DNA of 18,950 nucleotides from positions 1-18,950 of the IMG/VR virus record IMGVR_UViG_2778261447_000004. The stretch is one strand, 5' to 3'. Each line of letters starts with the position of its first letter. Positions within the stretch are counted from its first letter, which is position 1. The translations under genes and the position numbers were made by a program. Positions 143-10,816 of this stretch are shown in pieces. Under the pieces are notes generated by a model. That model searched no databases. It had not been told where the DNA came from and saw only the letters and a list, made by a program, of their open reading frames with translations. This DNA comes from a virus. Its lineage: Duplodnaviria; Heunggongvirae; Uroviricota; Caudoviricetes.

Positions 143-496
143 TTATTTATTACTAATACATGATTTAATTCCTTGAATCCTCTTGTTTTTTCCATTGGTA
201 GGATCTAACACACCTCGAAGAGAATAAAAATCAATAGTGGTAGAGCCGTCTGCTGACTTATAAATGTCGGCATTATCTGCAACTGCTAATACACTGTAAT
301 ATTTACCAATTTTTTGAGAAGTGATAGTATACAAGAGAGGTACACGTTGCCACTCACTGAGAATGCATTCTTGTATTTCTTGTGGTGGAGAATTTGTTTT
401 AAATGAAATGATAATATCCTGCTCTTCTCTATAATTATAAGGGTTTACGCATCCAGAAATTGCGAAAGAAAACAGAAGAATAATGATCCTGTTCAT
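143..496 (-). CDS. Small lipoprotein (117 aa), function unknown; AT-rich accessory gene
   Basis: ATG at 496 preceded by AGAGG. N-terminus MNRIIILLFSFAISGCVN is a signal peptide with lipobox ISGC, and +2 residue Val suggests outer-membrane sorting. Visibly AT-rich. The ORF track's upstream extension to 526 lacks a ribosome-binding site. Confidence 0.6.
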   Translation of the reverse strand: MNRIIILLFSFAISGCVNPYNYREEQDIIISFKTNSPPQEIQECILSEWQRVPLLYTITSQKIGKYYSVLAVADNADIYKSADGSTTIDFYSLRGVLDPTNGKNKRIQGIKSCISNK

Positions 497-558
497 TTTT
501 TTGCCTCTTTTGAAAATATTACTCAATTATTTTAGTTGCGGTGTGTTATAAGCATTAA

Positions 559-858
559 CTATAAAATATTAGATTCATAATTTTGTCCGCCGTGGTAAAC
601 GCCAGCGATAAAGACTTTATTGCCATCAACGGCAAAAGCAATAATCGTTCTGTGTCGGAAATGAGTTACCCGCATCCCCTGGCGAATATCATCGCGTTTA
701 TTGCCCCGATGCGGGAATGTAGAAAACCCATCAAGATAATCAAGAAGCGCATTGGCATAATTGTCAGCAATGACGCTTCCTGCTTTCTCCGTTATATATC
801 TGTGCAGGTTTATTATCTGCTGTTCGGCCTCGGGGGTAATGATGACTTCATATGTCAT
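559..858 (-). CDS. parE: Type II toxin, ParE/RelE superfamily (99 aa)
   Basis: About 100 aa, basic, with ParE-like composition. Starts 5 nt after the stop of an upstream ribbon-helix-helix antitoxin ORF on the same strand, the canonical antitoxin-then-toxin layout. Family assignment is from memory. Confidence 0.7.
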   Translation of the reverse strand: MTYEVIITPEAEQQIINLHRYITEKAGSVIADNYANALLDYLDGFSTFPHRGNKRDDIRQGMRVTHFRHRTIIAFAVDGNKVFIAGVYHGGQNYESNIL

Positions 859-4359: not shown

Positions 4360-5412
4360 ATGGCTAATACTGTAAAAATATCCAGTTGTGAGTTAATCAA
4401 CGCTGATTGCCTGGAATTTATCCAGACCTTACCGGAAAACTCTGTCGATCTGATTGTCACAGACCCGCCATACTTTAAAGTGAAACACGAAGGCTGGGAT
4501 AACCAGTGGAAGGGCGATGATGATTACCTGAAATGGCTGGATCAGTGTCTAGCGCAGTTCTGGCGGGTGTTAAAACCTGCCGGAAGCCTTTACCTGTTCT
4601 GCGGTCATCGTCTGGCATTTGATACCGAAATCATGATGCGTGAACGCTTTAATGTGCTGAACCACATTATCTGGGCGAAGCCGTCCGGACGATGGAACGG
4701 GTGCAATAAAGAAAGTCTGCGCGCATATTTTCCTGCCACAGAGCGCGTTCTGTTTGCTGAACATTACCAGGGGCCATATCGCGGCAAAAGTGACGGCTAT
4801 GCAGCAAAAGAAAGGGAACTCAAACAGCACATAATGGCACCGCTGATTTCGTATTTCAGGGATGCTCGTGCCGAACTGGGTATAACGGCAAAACAAATTG
4901 CCGAAGCCACAGGTAAGAAAAATATGGTTTCCCACTGGTTTGGTGCCAGTCAGTGGCAGTTGCCGAATGAGGCTGACTATCGGAAGTTACAGGCACTGTT
5001 TTCCCGTATAGCGGCAGAGAAGTTTCAGGAACAACAACTGGAACAACCACACCACCAGCTGGTGGCATCTTATGATTCACTGAATCGCAAATATTCTGAA
5101 TTGCTGGATGAGTTTAAATCTCTCCGGCGCTATTTCTCCGTATCAGTCTCCGTGCCTTATACCGATGTCTGGACGCATAAGCCCGTTCAGTTCTACCCGG
5201 GGAAACATCCGTGTGAGAAACCGGCGGATATGCTCAGACAAATAATCAATGCCAGTAGTCGACCAGGTGATCTGGTTGCTGATTTTTTTATGGGATCCGG
5301 TTCCACAATAAAAGCAGCAATGGCGCTGGGGCGTCGGGCCTTAGGTGTTGAGCTTGAGTCAGAGCGGTTTAATCAGACAGTGAAAGAGATAAACGAGCTG
5401 GTGGGGAAATAA
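4360..5412 (+). CDS. Orphan DNA methyltransferase, beta-class N6-adenine/N4-cytosine type (350 aa)
   Basis: Catalytic motif IV DPPY near the N-terminus (LIVTDPPYF) and SAM-binding motif I FxGxG near the C-terminus (DFFMGSGST). Motif IV before motif I is the beta-class order. No adjacent restriction endonuclease ORF. Confidence 0.85.
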
Positions 5413-5418
5413 TCTGGT

Positions 5419-5440
5419 GGCCACGTCAGGTGGCCTTTTT
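5419..5440 (+). terminator. Rho-independent terminator between methyltransferase and holin
   Basis: Stem GGCCAC (5419-5424), loop GTCAG, stem GTGGCC (5430-5435), followed by TTTTTATTT. Confidence 0.6.
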
Positions 5441-5479
5441 ATTTCCATTACACAGCACCCGCATCTGCGAGGTGGGGTT

Positions 5480-5695
5480 ATGAAATCCATGGATAAGTTA
5501 ACAACGGGTGTCGCCTATGGCACCTCGGCAGGCAGTGCCGGGTACTGGTTTTTGCAGTGGATTGATCAGGTTAGTCCGTCACAGTGGGCTGCTATTGGTG
5601 TGCTGGGGAGTCTGGCACTGGGCTTTCTGACTTATCTGACGAATCTGTATTTCAAAATTAAAGAGGATCGGCGCAAAGTGGCGCGGGGAGAGTAG
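5480..5695 (+). CDS. S: Pinholin/antiholin, phage 21 S-type (71 aa, dual-start MKSM)
   Basis: Product [71 protein letters not shown] is near-identical to phage 21 S21 as I recall it. Two in-frame starts (5480 and 5489) are separated by a Lys codon, the classic antiholin/holin dual-start motif. Confidence 0.9.
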
Positions 5696-5698
5696 GCG

Positions 5699-6010
5699 AT
5701 GAATAAAAAATACGAACTGGTTATTAAAGGGATAAGTAGTCACCCGGATAAGGTTGTGGTTACTGTGGCGCTGGAGAGCGACGGCTATCCGACGCTGTTT
5801 TCGCCGCATGTGGTGATTAAGCTTGATCGTGTTGACGGCGCAGCGCTGGAGCTTTATGAAGCAGAGGCGAAAAAACGAGCGAAGAAGATTTTTATGGATG
5901 CTGCTGCCGGGTTATGTGAAGCGTGGTCGTTGCCGGAAAAGCGCCTCCATTCAGAGGCGCGGTATACCATAAAAATTAACGGTTCAGATAACTCAATTGC
6001 TGGTTTTTAA
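5699..6010 (+). CDS. Hypothetical protein between holin and endolysin (103 aa); possibly YdfR/DUF1327-like
   Basis: ATG with GGAGAG upstream, 3 nt after the holin stop. Same position and length as YdfR in the Qin prophage lysis cassette as I recall it. Sequence identity not verified. Confidence 0.55.
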   Translation: MNKKYELVIKGISSHPDKVVVTVALESDGYPTLFSPHVVIKLDRVDGAALELYEAEAKKRAKKIFMDAAAGLCEAWSLPEKRLHSEARYTIKINGSDNSIAGF

Positions 6011-6246
6011 CCTTTTGTCTCAGTTGGCTTTCCAATATCTTTCATTGGTAGCAGCATTTCGATATTGCTTTTGATATATGGATTATCTGCATGTTCTGTT
6101 AATTGATAAATGATAGCATTTTTTTCATTCTGGTCTAATACAGAAAACATAACTGCAATCATATATTTAAGAGCCTCAATTTCTCCTGTTGTTGAGTTGG
6201 GGGATGAACAGTCCGCTGTAACATTAATAAAAGTTTCTTTTTTCAT
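6007..6246 (-). CDS. Hypothetical small protein (79 aa), AT-rich antisense gene inside the lysis cassette
   Basis: ATG at 6246 preceded by AAGGA with 7-nt spacing. Visibly AT-rich compared with neighbours. Convergent with the 103-aa ORF, with a 4-bp overlap at the stops. No family recognised. Confidence 0.5.
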   Translation of the reverse strand: MKKETFINVTADCSSPNSTTGEIEALKYMIAVMFSVLDQNEKNAIIYQLTEHADNPYIKSNIEMLLPMKDIGKPTETKG

Positions 6247-6270
6247 ATCAGATCCTTAGATGGGGTAGCT

Positions 6271-6332
6271 CAGCCAACCACCCGAGCCTTAACCGGAACG
6301 CCAGTGCCCACTACACTACTGGCGGGCTGAGG
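6271..6332. other. Nested inverted repeats in the intergenic region between the antisense small gene and the endolysin
   Basis: CTCAGCC (6271-6277) pairs with GGCTGAG (6326-6332). Inner pair GCCAGT / ACTGGC has a 12-nt loop. No U-tract; function unknown. Confidence 0.3.
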
Positions 6333-6370
6333 CTTTAACATATCCAGGGTTCAGAAAACGATAAATATCC

Positions 6371-6904
6371 ATGAGCACAAAAATCAGATACGGCCTGTCG
6401 GCTGCCGTTCTGGCGTTGATTGCTGCAGGTGCATCCGCTCCCGTCATTCTTGACCAGTTTCTGGACGAAAAAGAAGGTAATCACACTACGGCATACCGTG
6501 ATGGCTCCGGTATATGGACCATCTGTCGGGGTGCCACGATGGTGGATGGAAAACCCGTTTTTCCCGGTATGAAACTGTCGAAGGAAAAATGCGACCAGGT
6601 CAACGCTATCGAACGGGATAAGGCGCTGGCATGGGTGGAGCGCAATATTAAAGTTCCACTGACCGAAGCACAGAAAGCGGGTATTGCGTCATTCTGTCCC
6701 TATAACATTGGCCCCGGTAAGTGTTTCCCGTCGACGTTTTATAAGCGGCTTAATGCCGGTGATCGTAAAGGTGCCTGTGAGTCGATTCGCTGGTGGATTA
6801 AGGACGGTGGGCGTGATTGCCGCACACGTTCAAATAACTGCTACGGACAGGTTATTCGTCGTGACCAGGAAAGCGCATTAGCCTGTTGGGGGATAGATCA
6901 GTGA
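6371..6904 (+). CDS. R: SAR endolysin, T4-lysozyme-like muramidase (177 aa)
   Basis: N-terminal weakly hydrophobic Gly/Ala-rich signal-arrest-release segment [21 protein letters not shown]. Catalytic E-x8-D-x5-T triad in [16 protein letters not shown]. Pairs with a pinholin as in phage 21. Confidence 0.85.
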
Positions 6905-7365
6905 GAAGAGTAGTCGCGATTATCTCTGCTCTGGTTATCTGCATCATCGTCTGCCTGTCATGGGCTGTTAATCATTACCGTGATAACGCCATTACCTACA
7001 AAGCCCAGCGCGACAAAAATGCCAGAGAACTGAAGCTGGCGAACGTGGCAATTACTGACATGCAGATGCGTCAGCGTGATGTTGCTGCGCTCGATGCAAA
7101 ATACACGAAGGAGTTAGCTGATGCGAAAGCTGAAAATGATGCTCTGCGTGATGATGTTGCCGCTGGTCGTCGTCGGTTGCACATCAAAGCAGTCTGTCAG
7201 TCAGTGCGTGAAGCCACCACCGCCTCCGGCGTGGATAATGCAACCAGCCCCCGACTGGAAGACACCGCTGAACGGGATTATTTCACCCTCAGAGACCGAT
7301 TGATGACGATGCAGAAGCAACTGGAAGGGGCGCAGGAATATATCCGCACCCAGTGCATTAAGTAG
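6901..7365 (+). CDS. Rz: Spanin inner-membrane subunit Rz (i-spanin)
   Basis: GTG start overlapping the endolysin stop (GTGA). Product [44 protein letters not shown] is near-identical to lambda Rz. Confidence 0.85.
7121..7303 (+). CDS. Rz1: Spanin outer-membrane lipoprotein subunit Rz1 (o-spanin), embedded in Rz in the +1 frame
   Basis: Product [60 protein letters not shown] with lipobox VVGC and proline-rich stretch, near-identical to lambda Rz1. GGAG 7 nt upstream. Confidence 0.85.
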
Positions 7366-7388
7366 CCTTTTTGTTATCAGGAGAATGT

Positions 7389-7595
7389 ATGAAGAAATTA
7401 CAGGTAACCGCAAAGCTCTTTAATGGAAGAATCCCGTTCCGGATTTTACAGCGTGGTCGTGTTCTGGCTGAAGGTACATTCAGTGGTAAATGCACGGAAT
7501 GTTATTCACGAATATATGAAGTGGATGCCTCGGATGAAGATATAACCGTTGAGTGTAATGCCGGGATTGTATCGGCCACATTGCTTCATGGGTGA
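7389..7595 (+). CDS. Hypothetical small protein (68 aa); stand-alone copy of a domain repeated in the 286-aa ORF
   Basis: ATG at 7389 preceded by AGGAG. By-eye alignment: KKLQVTAKLFNGRIPFRILQRGRVLAEGTFSGK...YEVDASDEDITVE...GIVSATLL versus residues about 113-185 of the 7961-8821 product KKALLVTANQLSGRVDFQVRQGGRVLVNDAFVGR...YDVDADDQDISIS...GIVLTAELL. Confidence 0.55.
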   Translation: MKKLQVTAKLFNGRIPFRILQRGRVLAEGTFSGKCTECYSRIYEVDASDEDITVECNAGIVSATLLHG

Positions 7596-7624
7596 ATTGG
7601 GTTGTCGCTGGAGGATGCAGGCAA

Positions 7625-7825
7625 ATGAATTACCAACTGGCAAAACTTTATCGTGGTAAACATTTCGCAGGGTATGGGATTGCAGTTAATGGTGAGTTAC
7701 TGGAAGGGCAGCTTTCCGCCAGGACAGAGTCACGTGGAGGCGAGCCACCAACAGTCACTGTGACTTTCAGACTGACAGCAGAACATATCGAGAATCAGCC
7801 CGTCATTCAACTGAACAGGGTGTGA
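7625..7825 (+). CDS. Hypothetical small protein (66 aa); weaker, possible third copy of the same domain
   Basis: ATG at 7625 with GGAGGA 9 nt upstream; a GTG at 7592 is the alternative start. AKLYRGKHFAGYGIAVNGELLEGQLSAR loosely aligns with AKLFNGRIPFRILQRGRVLAEGTFSGK of the preceding ORF. Confidence 0.5.
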   Translation: MNYQLAKLYRGKHFAGYGIAVNGELLEGQLSARTESRGGEPPTVTVTFRLTAEHIENQPVIQLNRV

Positions 7826-7832
7826 GGTATTT

Positions 7833-7961
7833 ATGCCATCACGAATCCCACGTGCCTGCCGTAAGCGTGGATGCGCAGGTACAATCACAGACAGTTCTGG
7901 TTACTGCGATAAACATCGTGTGCGACCGTGGTTGCTCGGTGTCTTTGTCAGGAGGTTTTGA
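7833..7961 (+). pseudogene. Short ORF (42 aa) resembling the N-terminal zinc-binding region of a phage HNH endonuclease; probable truncated remnant
   Basis: ATG at 7833 with GAGG 6 nt upstream. Product MPSRIPRACRKRGCAGTITDSSGYCDKHRVRPW... has the C-x3-GC ... GYC-x2-H pattern seen at the N-terminus of terminase-associated HNH endonucleases. Frame ends after 42 codons with TGA overlapping the ATG of the next ORF, where composition becomes AT-rich. Confidence 0.4.
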
Positions 7962-8821
7962 TGAAAGAGTTGCAAAAAATTAATTCAATAATGGAAAGGT
8001 TAAGTGCTCTTGAGCGTAAGCTGGACGATTGTGGAAAGCTGTGTGTTGAAAAGCAAAATGAGCTTTACCGGGAATTTTTTACAATCGTAAGTGAGCTGAT
8101 GCCAATTGTTAATAACTGCCTGATGACATCCAGATTTTTTAATGTCGATGCTACTACATCCAGAAAATTTTCTGTGAAAATTCAAGAAAGAGTTTCTGGT
8201 AGTGTGACAAGAGAGATGGCTGAACAGTTGGTGGCAATGAGCAATAAAACAAAAAGAAAAAAGGCATTGCTTGTAACAGCAAATCAGCTTTCAGGGCGCG
8301 TTGACTTTCAGGTCAGACAGGGTGGGCGTGTACTGGTAAATGATGCGTTCGTTGGACGTAGCTTTAGTCCTTACTCGATAAAATATGATGTTGATGCAGA
8401 TGATCAGGATATCAGCATTTCCTGGAAATCTGAGACAGCAGGGATTGTATTAACAGCAGAGTTGTTGAGTGATGATAAAAATGATGTCCAGCATCATTTG
8501 GACGAAAAGAATCATATTTCTGAAATTTGTATGAAGCCACGCAGCGGAATGACTTTATTGTCACGCACTCTTGCTGCTGGCTTTTCTGCACCGGAAAAAC
8601 GTGTGCTTCTGGTAGTGCCTGAAGATGCAGATATTCGACCACTGAATGGCTGTGATGTTATTAGTGCAAAAACATTGCATACCCGCGTCATTCCTGTACC
8701 GGATGTGGTCATTATTGATGATGTTGAGAAATGCAAGTCTGTTTCCTCAACTGCCACAATCAAGCGAATTTTACGTTGTAGCACGTCGGCTGTTGTATTC
8801 CGGAAGCAGTTACATAACTAA
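7961..8821 (+). CDS. Hypothetical protein (286 aa): N-terminal predicted helical region, central domain paralogous to the 68-aa ORF, unique C-terminal region
   Basis: ATG at 7961 with AGGAGG 5 nt upstream. Strongly AT-rich relative to the phage backbone. Internal domain homology described under 7389-7595. No family recognised. Confidence 0.65.
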   Translation: MKELQKINSIMERLSALERKLDDCGKLCVEKQNELYREFFTIVSELMPIVNNCLMTSRFFNVDATTSRKFSVKIQERVSGSVTREMAEQLVAMSNKTKRKKALLVTANQLSGRVDFQVRQGGRVLVNDAFVGRSFSPYSIKYDVDADDQDISISWKSETAGIVLTAELLSDDKNDVQHHLDEKNHISEICMKPRSGMTLLSRTLAAGFSAPEKRVLLVVPEDADIRPLNGCDVISAKTLHTRVIPVPDVVIIDDVEKCKSVSSTATIKRILRCSTSAVVFRKQLHN

Positions 8822-8944
8822 CCAGTTTTGTTTTGCAGAACATCCTCAACTAAAAGCTTATAGAAAGAGAGCCTGAGATATTTTTTCTGTCTCTCGTAGT
8901 TGTTTGTTTTTTTCGAACAGGCTTACAACTTACAGGATATAAAC

Positions 8945-9394
8945 ATGCAAGAAGAAGCAAATAAAATTCTTGTTGATTTATTGCAGAAGGCCAGCGATGG
9001 AATTGATTCCGCCATTGCATTCAGTCAGGCTCAGATTCCGGATGTTGTTCATCAGTTGCTGGTATGGAATATGGTTGATAGCCTGATTAAAACATTAATA
9101 GCCATTTCAACAATCCCTCTGGTTTTCTGGTTTATGAAGAAGCAGTGCCAAAGAGTTGAGACAGGTAAAATCGGTGATGAAGGATATTCATGGGAGAAGG
9201 GAAATCCCAAATACAGGCCGACAATGGTTTGGGATAGCAAAGGTGATATTAATCTTCTTATCGTGCCATTGGTTGGAGTTTTGACTATGTGGGGGATTTT
9301 TATTATTTGTGCAGTAACCAATATGACATGGTTAAAAATCTGGCTGGCACCTAAGTTATATCTAATCGAATACGCAGCATCACTAATTAAATAG
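8945..9394 (+). CDS. Hypothetical membrane protein with two predicted transmembrane helices (149 aa)
   Basis: ATG at 8945 with AGGA 7 nt upstream. Hydrophobic segments LIKTLIAISTIPLVFWFM and INLLIVPLVGVLTMWGIFIICAV. AT-rich. Followed by terminator-like hairpins. Confidence 0.6.
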   Translation: MQEEANKILVDLLQKASDGIDSAIAFSQAQIPDVVHQLLVWNMVDSLIKTLIAISTIPLVFWFMKKQCQRVETGKIGDEGYSWEKGNPKYRPTMVWDSKGDINLLIVPLVGVLTMWGIFIICAVTNMTWLKIWLAPKLYLIEYAASLIK

Positions 9395-9451
9395 TCCATT
9401 ACAAAAGCCATTCGCTACAGAGTGGCTTTGATAATGGCTTATGCCCTGTAC

Positions 9452-9477
9452 GGGATAACTTAACTGATATCCCTTTT
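9452..9477 (+). terminator. Putative rho-independent terminator closing the accessory cassette
   Basis: Stem GGGATA (9452-9457), 10-nt loop, stem TATCCC (9468-9473), then TTTT. A second weaker hairpin AAAGCCA...TGGCTTT lies at 9403-9428. Confidence 0.45.
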
Positions 9478-9688
9478 AACGGATAAAGGTATTCAAGCCT
9501 GACACATCATGCGCTGTATCGTCGCCGTATTCCCGTATTAACAGAGACCGTAGCCCGACGGGGAACTCCTCTGCGCGAGTGTGCGGGAATAATCAAAAAC
9601 GATGCACACCGGGTTTTACTGTGCTGACAGACGCAGGGTTACCCTCATAGTCGCTTTTCCGGTGCGATGGTGGAAGAAACCGGGATGT

Positions 9689-9883
9689 TTATTCATCATC
9701 TCTTTGGATTGATGTATATGCTCTCTTTTCTGACGTTAGTCTCCGACGGCAGGCTTCAATGACCCAGGCTGAGAAATTCCCGGACCCTTTTTGCTCAAGA
9801 GCGATGTTAATTTGTTCAATCATTTGGTTAGGAAAGCGGATGTTGCGGGTTGTTGTTCTGCGGGTTCTGTTCTTCGTTGACAT
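9689..9883 (-). CDS. Small ribbon-helix-helix-like DNA-binding protein (64 aa); resembles DUF3950/YlcI-type prophage proteins
   Basis: Product MSTKNRTRRTTTRNIRFPNQMIEQINIALEQKGSGNFSAWVIEACRRRL fits a ribbon-helix-helix pattern after a basic N-terminus. Only a weak ribosome-binding site. Family attribution is from memory. Confidence 0.5.
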   Translation of the reverse strand: MSTKNRTRRTTTRNIRFPNQMIEQINIALEQKGSGNFSAWVIEACRRRLTSEKRAYTSIQRDDE

Positions 9884-10031
9884 GAGGTTGCCCCGTATTC
9901 AGTGTCGCTGATTTGTATTGTCTGAAGTTGTTTTTACGTTAAGTTGATGCAGATCAATTAATACGATACCTGCGTCATAATTTATTATTTGACGTGGTTT
10001 GATGGCGTAGATGCACGTTGTGACATGTAGA

Positions 10032-10046
10032 TGATAATTATTATCA
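10032..10046. promoter_or_regulatory. Palindrome TGATAATTATTATCA matching the 7-1-7 Fur-box motif, about 35 bp upstream of cosN
   Basis: GATAAT-T-ATTATC is a perfect inverted repeat around a single central base (10033-10045). With flanking T and A it matches the Fur 7-1-7 consensus tGATAATnATTATCa. It could also be a chance AT-rich palindrome or a packaging-related site. Confidence 0.25.
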
Positions 10047-10081
10047 TTTTGCGGGTCCTTTCCGGCATGTGGACCGTTACG

Positions 10082-10093
10082 GGGCGTCGACCT
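10082..10093. other. cosN cohesive-end site (12-nt overhang), lambda-like
   Basis: GGGCGTCGACCT followed by CGCGGTTTTTCGCTATTTATGA matches the lambda left end GGGCGGCGACCTCGCGGGTTTTCGCTATTTATGA with one mismatch in the 12-mer. Preceded by GTTACG as at the lambda right end. Nu1 and A genes follow. Confidence 0.7.
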
Positions 10094-10309
10094 CGCGGTT
10101 TTTCGCTATTTATGAGATTTTTTGAGGGGGTGGTTGTTGTTTAATTGTTTGGTATATCTAATTGATAAGTAAGGTGAAAATAAAATAAATACAACAACCT
10201 TACGATGTGCTTTGATGTCATTAATGTGAAAAAATTAAATGATATCAAATGGTTTTGTAAAAACACATGGTTGTTGTATCGCTTTTTATCGATGACTTAT
10301 GGAGAGGAG

Positions 10310-10816
10310 ATGGCCTTTTTATTGAATAAAAGTGATATGGCCTCCTCCATCGGTATCTCTGTTCAGGCATTTGATAAATGGGGCGTTCCTCCTGTCGAGC
10401 GTCGGGGGAGGGAAGTTTTTTATGACGTTAAAACTGTACTGGAGATAGATCGCGAGCGGCGACAACACAATCATAGAACACCTGATGACGGGGGCGATCT
10501 GGAGGAAAGGCTGCTTCGGGCCAGAGCTGAACTGACAGAAGAACAGGCCGTAGCTCAAAAACTTAAAAATCAGGTAACCGAAGGTAAGCTCATCGATTCA
10601 GACTTCTGCGTTTTCGCCCTCAGCAAGCTGGCGATGGCATTGTCCAGTACGCTTGATTCTATTCCGTTATCCATGCAGCGACAGTTCCCGGATTTAACGC
10701 CACGTCATCTTGACCATCTGAAAACCCTTATTGCGAAGGGCGCAAATCAGTGTGCGCGGGCAGGGGATAAATTACCGGATTTGCTGGATGAATATATCAG
10801 AGCAACAACTGAATAA
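10310..10816 (+). CDS. nu1: Terminase small subunit Nu1
   Basis: ATG at 10310 with GGAGAGGAG upstream. Alignable to lambda Nu1: ALSKLAMALSSTLDSIPLSMQRQFPDLTPRHLDHLK versus VLSRIAGEIASILDGLPLSVQRRFPELENRHVDFLK. Stop overlaps the start of A as in lambda. Confidence 0.8.
   Translation: MAFLLNKSDMASSIGISVQAFDKWGVPPVERRGREVFYDVKTVLEIDRERRQHNHRTPDDGGDLEERLLRARAELTEEQAVAQKLKNQVTEGKLIDSDFCVFALSKLAMALSSTLDSIPLSMQRQFPDLTPRHLDHLKTLIAKGANQCARAGDKLPDLLDEYIRATTE

What the first reader, a model, noticed from the sequence alone, without database searches (positions are those of the whole stretch)
7389..9480. AT-rich accessory cassette between Rz/Rz1 and cos: candidate undescribed phage-encoded system
In lambda the Rz-to-cos interval is a known site for accessory genes (bor). 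Here it holds four to five ORFs with good ribosome-binding sites and no recognisable family: two small proteins (68 and 66 aa), a 286-aa protein with a predicted helical N-terminus, and a 149-aa two-helix membrane protein. The last two are markedly AT-rich compared with the flanking lambda-type genes, and the cassette ends in terminator-like hairpins. This is the architecture expected of a horizontally acquired exclusion, abortive-infection, defence or host-interaction module, but the function is entirely unassigned.
Basis: partly seen in the sequence, partly recalled or inferred. Interest (0 to 1): 0.8.

Follow-up and report, generated by a model that had tools for sequence, protein, structure and literature searches.

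The report
Patchwork of uncharacterised phage accessory genes
The stretch between the lysis genes and the packaging site of this E. coli prophage holds real genes of unknown function. They are a recombination patchwork of independently moving accessory genes, not one new defence system, and the most interesting is a widespread small membrane protein.

Summary
Four conserved genes lie between Rz and cos, none has a hit in Pfam, NCBIfam, PADLOC or the PDB, and C and D are AT-rich (GC 0.41 and 0.39, against 0.51-0.52 in the flanks).

The "single cassette" reading does not hold.
- A, B and a 31-codon HNH endonuclease stump are the remains of an Rz-A-B-HNH-terminase boundary. That boundary is cut at 7925/7926.
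- C and D form a separate AT-rich module shared at 95-100% identity with N15-like linear phage-plasmids and other lambda-type prophages.
- Only 1 of 5,426 complete E. coli genomes carries all four genes together.
- C and D each occur alone.

D (149 aa, two membrane helices) belongs to a large family of temperate-phage proteins in Proteobacteria. It moves as a single gene between three places: just after N, just after Rz, and between portal and terminase.

C (286 aa) is rare and found only in E. coli. Its middle beta domain is a paralogue of A.

Both C and D are under purifying selection. No function is shown. My best guess is that D is a stand-alone inner-membrane protein acting in phage competition. 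The rivals are a lysis accessory, a counter-defence protein, or a Rex-like C-D pair. Interest is moderate: an ordinary mosaic hotspot, with D a good candidate for experiments.

The parts
7389..7595 (+). Gene A, 68 aa. A small all-beta protein of a family usually encoded just after Rz in E. coli and Stx prophages. Paralogue of the middle domain of C.
   Evidence: ORF and RBS. Matches PHROG 2571 positions 100-158, E = 7e-24. 45% identical to C residues 101-169, E = 3e-14. Homologues lie right after Rz in Stx1, Stx2a and Stx2c phages.
7625..7825 (+). Gene B, 66 aa, unknown function. Normally precedes an intact HNH endonuclease gene.
   Evidence: PHROG 10235, E = 6e-29. The same protein (WP_072262440) precedes an intact HNH and a P27-type terminase in JNEC-KY180. 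41-48% aa homologues occur in a Klebsiella and a Yersinia phage.
7833..7925 (+). N-terminal stump (31 codons) of an HNH endonuclease gene; a pseudogene. The mosaic junction lies at 7925/7926.
   Evidence: PHROG 144 (HNH endonuclease) positions 17-47, E = 7e-8. NCBI annotates it as incomplete in TUM1886 and DG342-2. Homology to the intact-HNH locus L007 ends at 7925, and homology to the N15-like loci starts at 7920-7926.
7961..8821 (+). Gene C, 286 aa, cytoplasmic. Three parts: a helical N-terminus (residues 1-97), a beta domain (about 99-170, like A) and an alpha/beta C-terminal domain (about 200-280).
8822..8944 (+). C-D spacer. T-rich, GC 0.35, with a weak hairpin.
   Evidence: The fold is not better than shuffles (z = -0.86). 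No promoter or terminator was called, except a sigma70-like match that overlaps the D start.
8945..9394 (+). Gene D, 149 aa. A two-helix inner-membrane protein with a highly conserved N-terminal 43 residues and C-terminal 22 residues.
   Evidence: PHROG 3054, E = 3e-61. 498 homologous clusters. Alignment shows the conserved ends. Hydropathy and charge distribution. AF2 helical model, pLDDT 68. dN/dS 0.11-0.17. Found in 136 of 5,426 E. coli genomes and in 23 species-level loci of other genera.
9396..9437 (+). Strong hairpin just after D. It has no U-tract, so it is at best a weak terminator.
   Evidence: MFE of the 116-nt stretch is -35.9 kcal/mol, z = -4.85, and 0 of 200 shuffles fold as well. 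The terminator scan did not call it.
9511..9695 (.). Conserved non-coding segment. In N15-like phage-plasmids, two copies of it flank C-D as direct repeats of about 190 bp.
   Evidence: BLAST of the window against L006 and L002. Repeats at L006 17779-17965 and 19562-19749, 86-98% identical. No Rfam match and no fold better than shuffles.
9689..9883 (-). YlcI/YnfO (DUF3950) gene on the opposite strand. It belongs to the lambda-type cos-proximal backbone, not to the accessory genes.
   Evidence: Pfam DUF3950, E = 2e-20; NCBIfam YlcI_YnfO_N. Annotated in TUM1886.
10082..10093 (+). cosN-like sequence GGGCGTCGACCT, marking the right-hand limit of the Rz-to-cos slot.
   Evidence: Read from the sequence. 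It differs at one base from lambda cosN, GGGCGGCGACCT (my own knowledge of lambda). The Nu1/A terminase genes follow.

Best explanation
The interval is a recombination patchwork at the lysis/packaging boundary of a lambdoid prophage. It is not a four-gene system.

Shown:
1. A, B and the first 31 codons of an HNH endonuclease gene are what remains of an Rz-A-B-HNH-small-terminase arrangement. That arrangement belongs to phages with HK97/P27-type packaging, and here it is cut at 7925/7926.
2. From 7926 onward, an AT-rich module carrying C and D is joined on, together with a lambda-type YlcI-cos-Nu1-A packaging module. The same C-D module lies between DUF4406 and cos in N15-like linear phage-plasmids and in other lambda-type prophages.
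3. C and D can be separated. D is a single-gene accessory element of a large family of temperate-phage inner-membrane proteins. It recurs directly after N in the early-left operon, directly after Rz, or alone on the opposite strand between portal and terminase. C is a rare E. coli protein built from a helical N-terminus, a copy of the A-type beta domain, and an alpha/beta domain.

Inferred:
- Here all four genes are read as part of the Q-dependent late transcript.
- D inserts into the inner membrane with its basic loop in the cytoplasm and its two highly conserved ends on the periplasmic side.
- D works by itself at the membrane during phage development. It most likely acts in competition between phages, either blocking entry of a second phage or protecting the infected cell's membrane.
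- C is at most an optional cytoplasmic partner.
For: Mosaic structure:
- Homology to the intact-HNH locus ends at 7925. Homology to the N15-like loci spans 7920-9678.
- Only 1 of 5,426 complete E. coli genomes, and no phage record, holds at least 80% of the interval.

How the units are distributed:
- A+B together occur in 30 genomes, and B occurs in about 85 more.
- C occurs in 35 genomes, 14 of them on plasmids of about 46 kb that carry protelomerase and SopAB.
- D occurs in 136 genomes.
- D is present at 99.8% identity without C on the same backbone. There C has been neatly deleted between short repeats, leaving C's 24-nt leader behind.
- An 80%-identical C lies between Rz and Nu1 with no D.
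- D alleles behind a C that is 99.8% identical range from 87% to 99.8% identity.

Contexts of D:
- After N in HF4s, Oslo (beside sieB) and EC31.
- Across 23 species-level loci, about 9-10 are near N or the immunity region. About 8-9 are in or beside the lysis cassette, five of these within 8 nt of Rz or overlapping it.
- Two lie on the opposite strand between portal and terminase.

Real genes: dN/dS is 0.25 for C and 0.11-0.17 for D.

Membrane topology of D: two hydrophobic segments, 8 K/R in the loop against 2 in the N-terminal tail, and very conserved ends.

Not a known system: no hit in PADLOC, Pfam or NCBIfam for the window proteins or for 40 D relatives. No similarity to any ORF of lambda (including rexA, rexB, sieB, bor), P22 (sieA, sieB, 17, ral), N15 or HK97 (including gp15).
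Against: - No functional data exist for any of the four proteins, so the exclusion role for D is a guess from location, size and membrane topology.
- All 28 full-length C genes in complete E. coli genomes have D about 124 nt downstream. C could therefore depend on D.
- D lies directly after, or overlaps, the spanin gene in several genera, which fits a role in lysis equally well.
- Its place among ral and gene 17 in early-left operons fits counter-defence equally well.
- No promoter was detected. Expression in the lysogen, which classic prophage exclusion needs, is therefore unsupported.
- The extreme conservation of D's ends across hosts points to a conserved host target or to self-assembly, not to variable phage parts.
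- Both structure models are of low to moderate confidence.
Confidence: 0.55

Rival explanations
1. C and D form a two-part exclusion or abortive-infection module like lambda RexA/RexB. C is a cytoplasmic sensor of about 280 aa. On sensing a second phage it triggers D, a membrane effector of about 145 aa, which depolarises the cell.
For: - Gene order and sizes mirror rexA (279 aa) followed by rexB (144 aa).
- 28 of 28 full-length C genes in complete E. coli genomes are followed by D.
- The pair moves as one AT-rich block between N15-like plasmids and lambda-type prophages.
- C has a coiled-coil-like N-terminus plus globular domains.
Against: - No sequence similarity to RexA or RexB.
- D has 2 hydrophobic helices, not 4.
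- D occurs alone in most genomes that carry it and in many genera. A diverged C occurs alone.
- D alleles are swapped behind an unchanged C.
- All C genes linked to D are at least 95.9% identical, so the linkage may simply reflect recent common descent.
- The pair is in line with the late operon, not in the immunity region, and no promoter was found.
Confidence: 0.15
2. D is an accessory of the lysis cassette: a small membrane protein that tunes the timing or completion of lysis, for example by acting on the holin, a membrane-anchored endolysin or the spanins.
For: - In Buttiauxella, Dryocola, Proteus and Providencia loci, D starts within 8 nt of the Rz gene or overlaps it. In Pantoea and another locus it follows holin-lysozyme-Rz.
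- In the window it lies in the late operon, 1.6 kb downstream of Rz.
- It is a two-helix membrane protein.
Against: - About as many family members lie just after N in the early-left operon, far from the lysis genes. Two lie on the opposite strand between portal and terminase.
- No holin family is hit by any of 40 members.
- D's ends are highly conserved, whereas holins and spanins are very diverse.
Confidence: 0.2
3. D is a host-takeover or counter-defence protein made during lytic growth. It would protect the infected cell's membrane, or block a conserved host membrane protein, in the way that ral, P22 gene 17 or T4 rII counter host or prophage defences.
For: - In P22-like and lambda-like phages D occupies the slot between N and cIII/kil that holds ral and gene 17. 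It is transcribed in the pL direction and starts 8 nt after N in HF4s.
- It is always in line with lytic operons here, with no promoter found.
- The very conserved ends across genera suggest a conserved host target.
Against: - There is no similarity to any known anti-defence protein in the libraries searched.
- The opposite-strand copies between portal and terminase look like self-transcribed genes expressed from the prophage.
- No data exist on any target.
Confidence: 0.2
4. One reading: the four ORFs A-D are one horizontally acquired defence or exclusion cassette that works as a unit.
For: The four genes are adjacent, on the same strand and unannotated. C and D are AT-rich.
Against: - Two mosaic segments are joined inside a truncated HNH gene.
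- All four occur together in only 1 of 5,426 genomes.
- A+B occur without C/D, C/D occur without A+B, and D occurs without C.
- No PADLOC hit.
Confidence: 0.03

Closest known systems
Accessory slot between Rz and cos in lambdoid phages (lambda bor; N15 genes 56-59; HK97 KilA-N and HNH)
   Same: Same genomic position and the same variability of content. AT-rich inserts lie between conserved lysis and packaging genes. In N15-like plasmids, C-D replace the gene 58 methyltransferase and gp59 between DUF4406 and cos.
   Different: bor is on the opposite strand with its own promoter, and encodes an outer-membrane lipoprotein expressed in lysogens. A-D are all on the late-operon strand, have no detected promoter, and share no sequence similarity with bor.
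Lambda RexA/RexB exclusion pair
   Same: A cytoplasmic protein of about 280 aa is followed by a membrane protein of about 145 aa.
   Different: - No sequence similarity.
- D has 2 rather than 4 membrane helices.
- The pair is not in the immunity region.
- C and D each occur alone.
Small inner-membrane superinfection-exclusion proteins (P22 SieA, HK97 gp15, T4 Imm)
   Same: Single small inner-membrane proteins carried as accessory genes at variable sites in phage genomes. D is likewise a stand-alone membrane protein found in several accessory slots. SieA is described in PMC10883804 and gp15 in PMC3594210.
   Different: - No similarity to SieA or gp15.
- D lacks the SieA motif FxRYPxEAxxFNK and has 2 helices rather than 3.
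- gp15 is only 62 aa.
- T4 Imm was not compared.
- No exclusion phenotype is known for D.
HNH endonuclease next to the terminase in HK97/P27-type packaging modules
   Same: The stump at 7833-7925 matches the N-terminus of this family and sits where the intact gene lies in JNEC-KY180 and HK97.
   Different: Here it is cut after 31 codons and joined to a lambda-type Nu1/A module, which does not use an HNH partner.
PHROG families 2571 (C, A), 10235 (B) and 3054 (D)
   Same: Full-length, highly significant matches. The families are therefore already catalogued.
   Different: All are listed as 'unknown function'. No Pfam or NCBIfam family exists.

Membership tests
Known anti-phage defence systems (PADLOC-DB 2.0) | Protein matches a model of a known or candidate defence system | tested here: not met
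   No hit at E <= 1 for A, B, the HNH stump, C, D or YlcI. No hit for 40 D-family members.
Lambda RexA/RexB | Sequence homology to RexA or RexB | tested here: not met
   Profiles of the C and D families against all lambda ORFs in 33.0-48.5 kb gave E > 0.5. PDB sequence searches returned nothing, or one chance-level match at E = 1.1.
Lambda RexA/RexB | Obligate gene pair in the immunity region, co-transcribed with the repressor; membrane partner has four helices | tested here: not met
   C-D lie in the late operon between Rz and cos. D occurs alone and C occurs alone. D has two hydrophobic segments.
P22 SieA / SieB, HK97 gp15 (membrane exclusion proteins) | Sequence homology; for SieA, three membrane helices and the motif FxRYPxEAxxFNK (PMC10883804) | tested here: not met
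   The D-family profile against all P22 and HK97 ORFs gave E > 1. The motif is absent from the D alignment.
Superinfection exclusion (by function) | Expression blocks DNA entry or growth of a second phage | not testable with these tools
   Needs plaque assays with D expressed alone.
Moron (self-contained accessory transcription unit) | Inserted between genes that are adjacent in related phages, with deviant base composition | tested here: met
   C-D are absent between HNH and terminase, or between DUF4406 and cos, in relatives. C alone is absent in DG342-2. GC is 0.39-0.41 against 0.52.
Moron (self-contained accessory transcription unit) | Own promoter upstream and own terminator downstream | tested here: inconclusive
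   There is no excess of promoter-like sites: 9 found against 8.7 expected. The only nearby match overlaps the D start. There is no canonical terminator, but a strong hairpin without a U-tract follows D.
Holins / lysis-cassette membrane proteins | Match to a holin or lysis family | tested here: not met
   No Pfam holin family is hit by D or by 40 relatives. The true holin here is the S21-type gene at 5480-5695.
Holins / lysis-cassette membrane proteins | Consistent position inside the lysis cassette | tested here: inconclusive
   About 8-9 of 23 species-level loci have D in or beside the lysis cassette, five of them within 8 nt of Rz or overlapping it. About 9-10 have it beside N or the immunity region.
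P-loop / RecA-like NTPases (C-terminal domain of C) | Walker A motif GxxxxGK[ST] | tested here: not met
   The nearest candidate is KPRSGMT, with Met where the Lys should be (read). No Pfam P-loop family is hit.
P-loop / RecA-like NTPases (C-terminal domain of C) | RecA-like alpha/beta fold | tested here: inconclusive
HNH endonuclease (ORF 7833-7961) | Intact protein with the catalytic HNH motif | tested here: not met
   Only profile positions 17-47 of 175 are matched. Homology to the intact gene stops at 7925. NCBI marks the gene as incomplete.

The most novel reading that the evidence does not exclude
The D family may be a new, widespread class of phage-encoded inner-membrane effector. It is highly conserved from Escherichia to Pseudomonas and Achromobacter prophages. 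It would act alone, or in E. coli together with the rare C protein as a Rex-like sensor-effector pair, to exclude or abort competing phages by a mechanism unrelated to any described exclusion protein.
Probability: 0.2. Interest if true: 0.65.

Novelty: new member of a known kind. Interest (0 to 1): 0.4.

Why it matters
The practical value is in narrowing the experiment. The four-gene 'system' breaks down into separate units, so cloning the whole cassette would be the wrong design.

D is the unit worth testing, for these reasons:
- It is a compact, strongly conserved membrane protein.
- It is present in about 2.5% of complete E. coli genomes and in prophages of many Proteobacteria.
- It has no Pfam family.
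- It recurs in the slots where phages keep exclusion, anti-restriction and lysis functions.

Finding its role would annotate hundreds of protein clusters at once. The locus also documents recent gene flow between N15-like linear phage-plasmids and integrated lambda-type prophages.

Tried and rejected
- **Family libraries:** Pfam, NCBIfam and PADLOC gave no hits for A, B, C or D. PHROGs gave only families of unknown function.
- **Solved structures by sequence:** single proteins and profiles gave nothing, apart from chance-level matches at E of about 1.1.
- **Exhaustive search for distant relatives of C:** across 1.84 billion representatives, only fragments and A-like small proteins turned up.
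- **Structure prediction:** D has pLDDT 68 and is a simple helical hairpin, so I ran no fold search on it. C has pLDDT 57.
- **Rfam:** no RNA family in 5300-10400.
- **Promoter and terminator scan:** no excess over shuffled sequence.
- **Folding of non-coding stretches:** the C-D spacer and the 9530-9670 segment fold no better than shuffles.
- **Profiles of C and D against phage ORFs:** nothing in any ORF of lambda (33.0-48.5 kb only), P22, N15 or HK97, so homology to RexA/B, SieA/B, bor, gene 17, ral and gp15 is rejected.
- **Literature:** searches by accession numbers, phage names and topic found no paper on these proteins.
Full report
**What the window is.** It is the late region of a lambdoid E. 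coli prophage. In order, it holds:
- a ParE toxin on the minus strand, DUF968, RusA, antiterminator Q and an N6/N4 DNA methylase;
- an S21-type holin, a DUF1327 gene, lysozyme and Rz/Rz1;
- the interval in question;
- a minus-strand YlcI/DUF3950 gene, a cos site, and lambda-type Nu1, A, W, B, C, D and E genes.

The interval is 99.8% identical to the chromosome of E. coli TUM1886, where NCBI annotates the same ORFs.

| Gene | Coordinates | Length | GC |
|---|---|---|---|
| A | 7389-7595 | 68 aa | 0.44 |
| B | 7625-7825 | 66 aa | 0.48 |
| C | 7961-8821 | 286 aa | 0.407 |
| D | 8945-9394 | 149 aa | 0.389 |

- A, B and C have clear Shine-Dalgarno motifs. D has a weaker one.
- The neighbouring lysis and terminase genes have GC of about 0.52.
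- D has two strongly hydrophobic segments.
- The C model is helical over its first 97 residues, at low confidence.
- A strong hairpin follows D at 9396-9437 (z = -4.85). It has no U-tract and the terminator scan did not call it.
- None of the four proteins matches Pfam, NCBIfam, PADLOC or the sequences of solved structures. They match only PHROGs of unknown function.
- The ORFs are genes, not chance. C has dN/dS of 0.25 against an 80%-identical relative, with similar values in all three domains. D has 0.11-0.17 against most relatives. A and B have diverged homologues in other phages.

Two points were missed. The 'fifth ORF' is the first 31 codons of an HNH endonuclease gene. A is homologous to residues 101-169 of C, at 45% identity and E = 3e-14.

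**The interval is a patchwork.** In the Stx1d prophage of strain JNEC-KY180 the order is Rz, an A-like gene, B (the identical protein), an intact HNH endonuclease, a P27-type small terminase and the large terminase. HK97 also has an HNH gene just before cos.
- Homology between that locus and the window stops at 7925, inside the HNH gene.
- From 7920-7926 onward the window instead matches N15-like elements, through to 9678.
- So A, B and the HNH stump are the leftover edge of one packaging type. C, D and the lambda-type cos/Nu1/A module have been joined onto it.
- In line with this, only 1 of 5,426 complete E. coli genomes, and no phage record, carries at least 80% of the interval.
- A+B together occur in 30 genomes, and B occurs in about 85 more.

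**The C-D module.** C occurs in 35 of 5,426 complete E. coli genomes, 28 of them full length. All copies are at least 95.9% identical in DNA.
- Fourteen copies are on plasmids of about 46 kb. These plasmids carry a protelomerase, SopAB, a large RepA and a full lambda-like virion module, so they are N15-like linear phage-plasmids. Phage PhiR46_1 is one of these.
- There, C-D lie between DUF4406 and cos. Phage N15 itself has a cytosine methyltransferase and gp59 in that place.
- In these plasmids the module is bracketed by direct repeats of about 190 bp. The repeats correspond to window 9511-9695.
- The same DUF4406-C-D-Nu1 arrangement also occurs in integrated lambda-type prophages.

**C and D are separable.**
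- D occurs in 136 genomes, far more than C.
- Strain DG342-2 has the same backbone and a D that is 99.8% identical, but it lacks exactly 7950-8887. The deletion lies between short repeats (TCTTTGTC and TTTCTGTC) and leaves C's 24-nt leader fused to the HNH stump. C was therefore lost and D kept.
- The most diverged full-length C (80% aa identity) lies between Rz and Nu1 with no D.
- D alleles behind an almost unchanged C range from 87% to 99.8% identity.
- On the other side, all 28 full-length C genes in complete E. coli genomes do have D about 124 nt downstream. All of these belong to one recent lineage, so common descent can explain the linkage. A dependence of C on D is still not excluded.

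**What D is.** D belongs to a large family: 498 clusters at E <= 0.001 in the word-indexed search, mostly Enterobacteriaceae. Relatives reach Proteus, Providencia, Rahnella, Pseudomonas and Achromobacter.

The alignment shows the following layout:

| Segment | Approx. residues | Feature |
|---|---|---|
| N-terminal tail | 1-43 | almost invariant |
| First membrane helix | 44-64 | variable |
| Loop | 65-104 | basic |
| Second membrane helix | 105-127 | variable |
| C-terminal tail | last 22 | almost invariant (WLKIWLAPKLYLIEYAASLIK) |

- The loop carries 8 Lys/Arg against 2 in the acidic N-terminal tail. By the positive-inside rule, the loop should be cytoplasmic and both conserved ends periplasmic. 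This is an inference.
- The AF2 model is a helical hairpin at pLDDT 68.

The family roams as a single gene:
- It lies directly after the antiterminator N in the early-left operon of HF4s (8 nt after N), Oslo (beside sieB) and an E. coli P22-like prophage. In P22 and lambda that slot holds ral, gene 17 and sieB.
- Among 23 species-level loci, about 9-10 are near N or the immunity region. About 8-9 are in or beside the lysis cassette; in five of these D starts within 8 nt of Rz or overlaps it.
- Two copies (Pseudomonas, Rahnella) stand alone on the opposite strand between portal and terminase genes.

**What C is.** An exhaustive search of 1.84 billion representatives found only one full-length cluster. 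All named full-length relatives are from E. coli. C has three parts:
- **Helical N-terminus.** This part also exists as a 67-aa ORF upstream of the terminase in Citrobacter prophages.
- **Beta domain.** It is predicted at pLDDT 70-81. It belongs to the same family as A and as many small proteins of about 70 aa encoded right after Rz in E. coli and Stx prophages.

**How it most likely works.** Shown: the mosaic origin, the independence of the units, the purifying selection and the membrane character of D. Inferred:
- In this prophage all four genes are on the late-operon strand with no detectable promoter. They are probably made late in lytic growth, by read-through from the Q-modified late transcript.
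- D acts by itself in the inner membrane.
- Because D sits in slots that hold exclusion, anti-restriction and lysis functions, I think a role in competition between phages is most likely. That role would be blocking a second phage or protecting the infected cell's membrane. My confidence in that specific function is only about 0.3.
- The main rivals are a lysis accessory (supported by the tight coupling to Rz in several genera), an early counter-defence or host-takeover protein (supported by the N-proximal slot and the conserved ends), and a Rex-like C-D pair (supported by the gene sizes and order and the 28/28 linkage).

**Comparison with known systems.**
- The C and D family profiles find nothing in any ORF of lambda (33.0-48.5 kb only; rexA, rexB, sieB, bor), P22 (sieA, sieB, 17, ral), N15 or HK97 (including the gp15 exclusion moron).
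- D lacks the SieA motif described in PMC10883804.
- The resemblance to RexA/RexB is limited to sizes and order. Number of membrane helices, location and obligate pairing all fail.
- The locus fits the general idea of accessory genes inserted at module boundaries. It does not meet the strict moron criterion of an own promoter and terminator.

**Verdict.** The 'undescribed four-gene system' interpretation is not supported. What remains is an ordinary mosaic accessory hotspot that contains one good experimental candidate (D) and one rare composite protein (C). The families are already catalogued as PHROGs of unknown function, so I class this as a new member of a known kind and rate interest at about 0.4.

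Noticed in passing
window 5699-6246: A second accessory slot lies inside the lysis cassette, in an AT-rich patch (GC 0.39-0.41) between the S21-type holin and the lysozyme. It holds a DUF1327 gene (5699-6010, +) and a 79-aa ORF with no family match (6007-6246, -).
   Followed up: partly
L006 17779-17965 and 19562-19749; window 9511-9695: In N15-like phage-plasmids the C-D module is flanked by direct repeats of about 190 bp (86-98% identical). This suggests it was inserted or duplicated by recombination at that sequence. The window keeps one copy, downstream of D.
   Followed up: partly
L015-L017 5001-5204 (Citrobacter prophages): A 67-aa ORF matching only the N-terminal helical part of C lies just upstream of the small terminase gene. 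It is indexed in 58 blocks of the contig collection. It is either a remnant of C or a free-standing module.
   Followed up: no
protein P0145 (E. coli, 181 aa); window 5960-6010: An A-like beta domain is fused to a tail carrying the motif EARYTIKINSSDNSIAGF. Almost the same motif ends the window's DUF1327 protein, which hints at domain shuffling among small proteins encoded near the lysis genes.
   Followed up: no
L029 and L031, 6001-6498 (Pseudomonas lundensis, Rahnella sp.): D-family genes stand alone on the opposite strand between portal-like and terminase-like genes. This is the layout of a self-transcribed accessory gene.
   Followed up: no
L034 6771-7013 (Pseudocitrobacter faecalis): An A-family gene (36% identity) lies about 400 bp downstream of a D-family gene and upstream of the terminase. 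The two families therefore also meet in a distant genus.
   Followed up: no
E. coli CFSAN029787, RMDEC364, VL46 (hits H47-H49); FDAARGOS_943 (L041 2501-3360): The module shows signs of decay. IS5-family insertions lie within the C-D region in three strains, and C is frameshifted in FDAARGOS_943. Seven genomes keep only 353-585 bp of C.
   Followed up: no
window 6371-6460 and 5480-5695: The lysozyme starts with a hydrophobic stretch ([25 protein letters not shown]). It is paired with a P21-type holin, which resembles the membrane-anchored endolysin plus pinholin type of lysis system. This rests on my own knowledge of phage 21 lysis.
   Followed up: no
window 143-858 (- strand): A ParE-family toxin gene (559-858) sits next to an unassigned 127-aa ORF (143-526) at the left end of the window. 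This may be a toxin-antitoxin pair.
   Followed up: no
window 4360-5412: An N6/N4 DNA methyltransferase gene lies between Q and the holin, the position where Stx phages carry the toxin genes.
   Followed up: no
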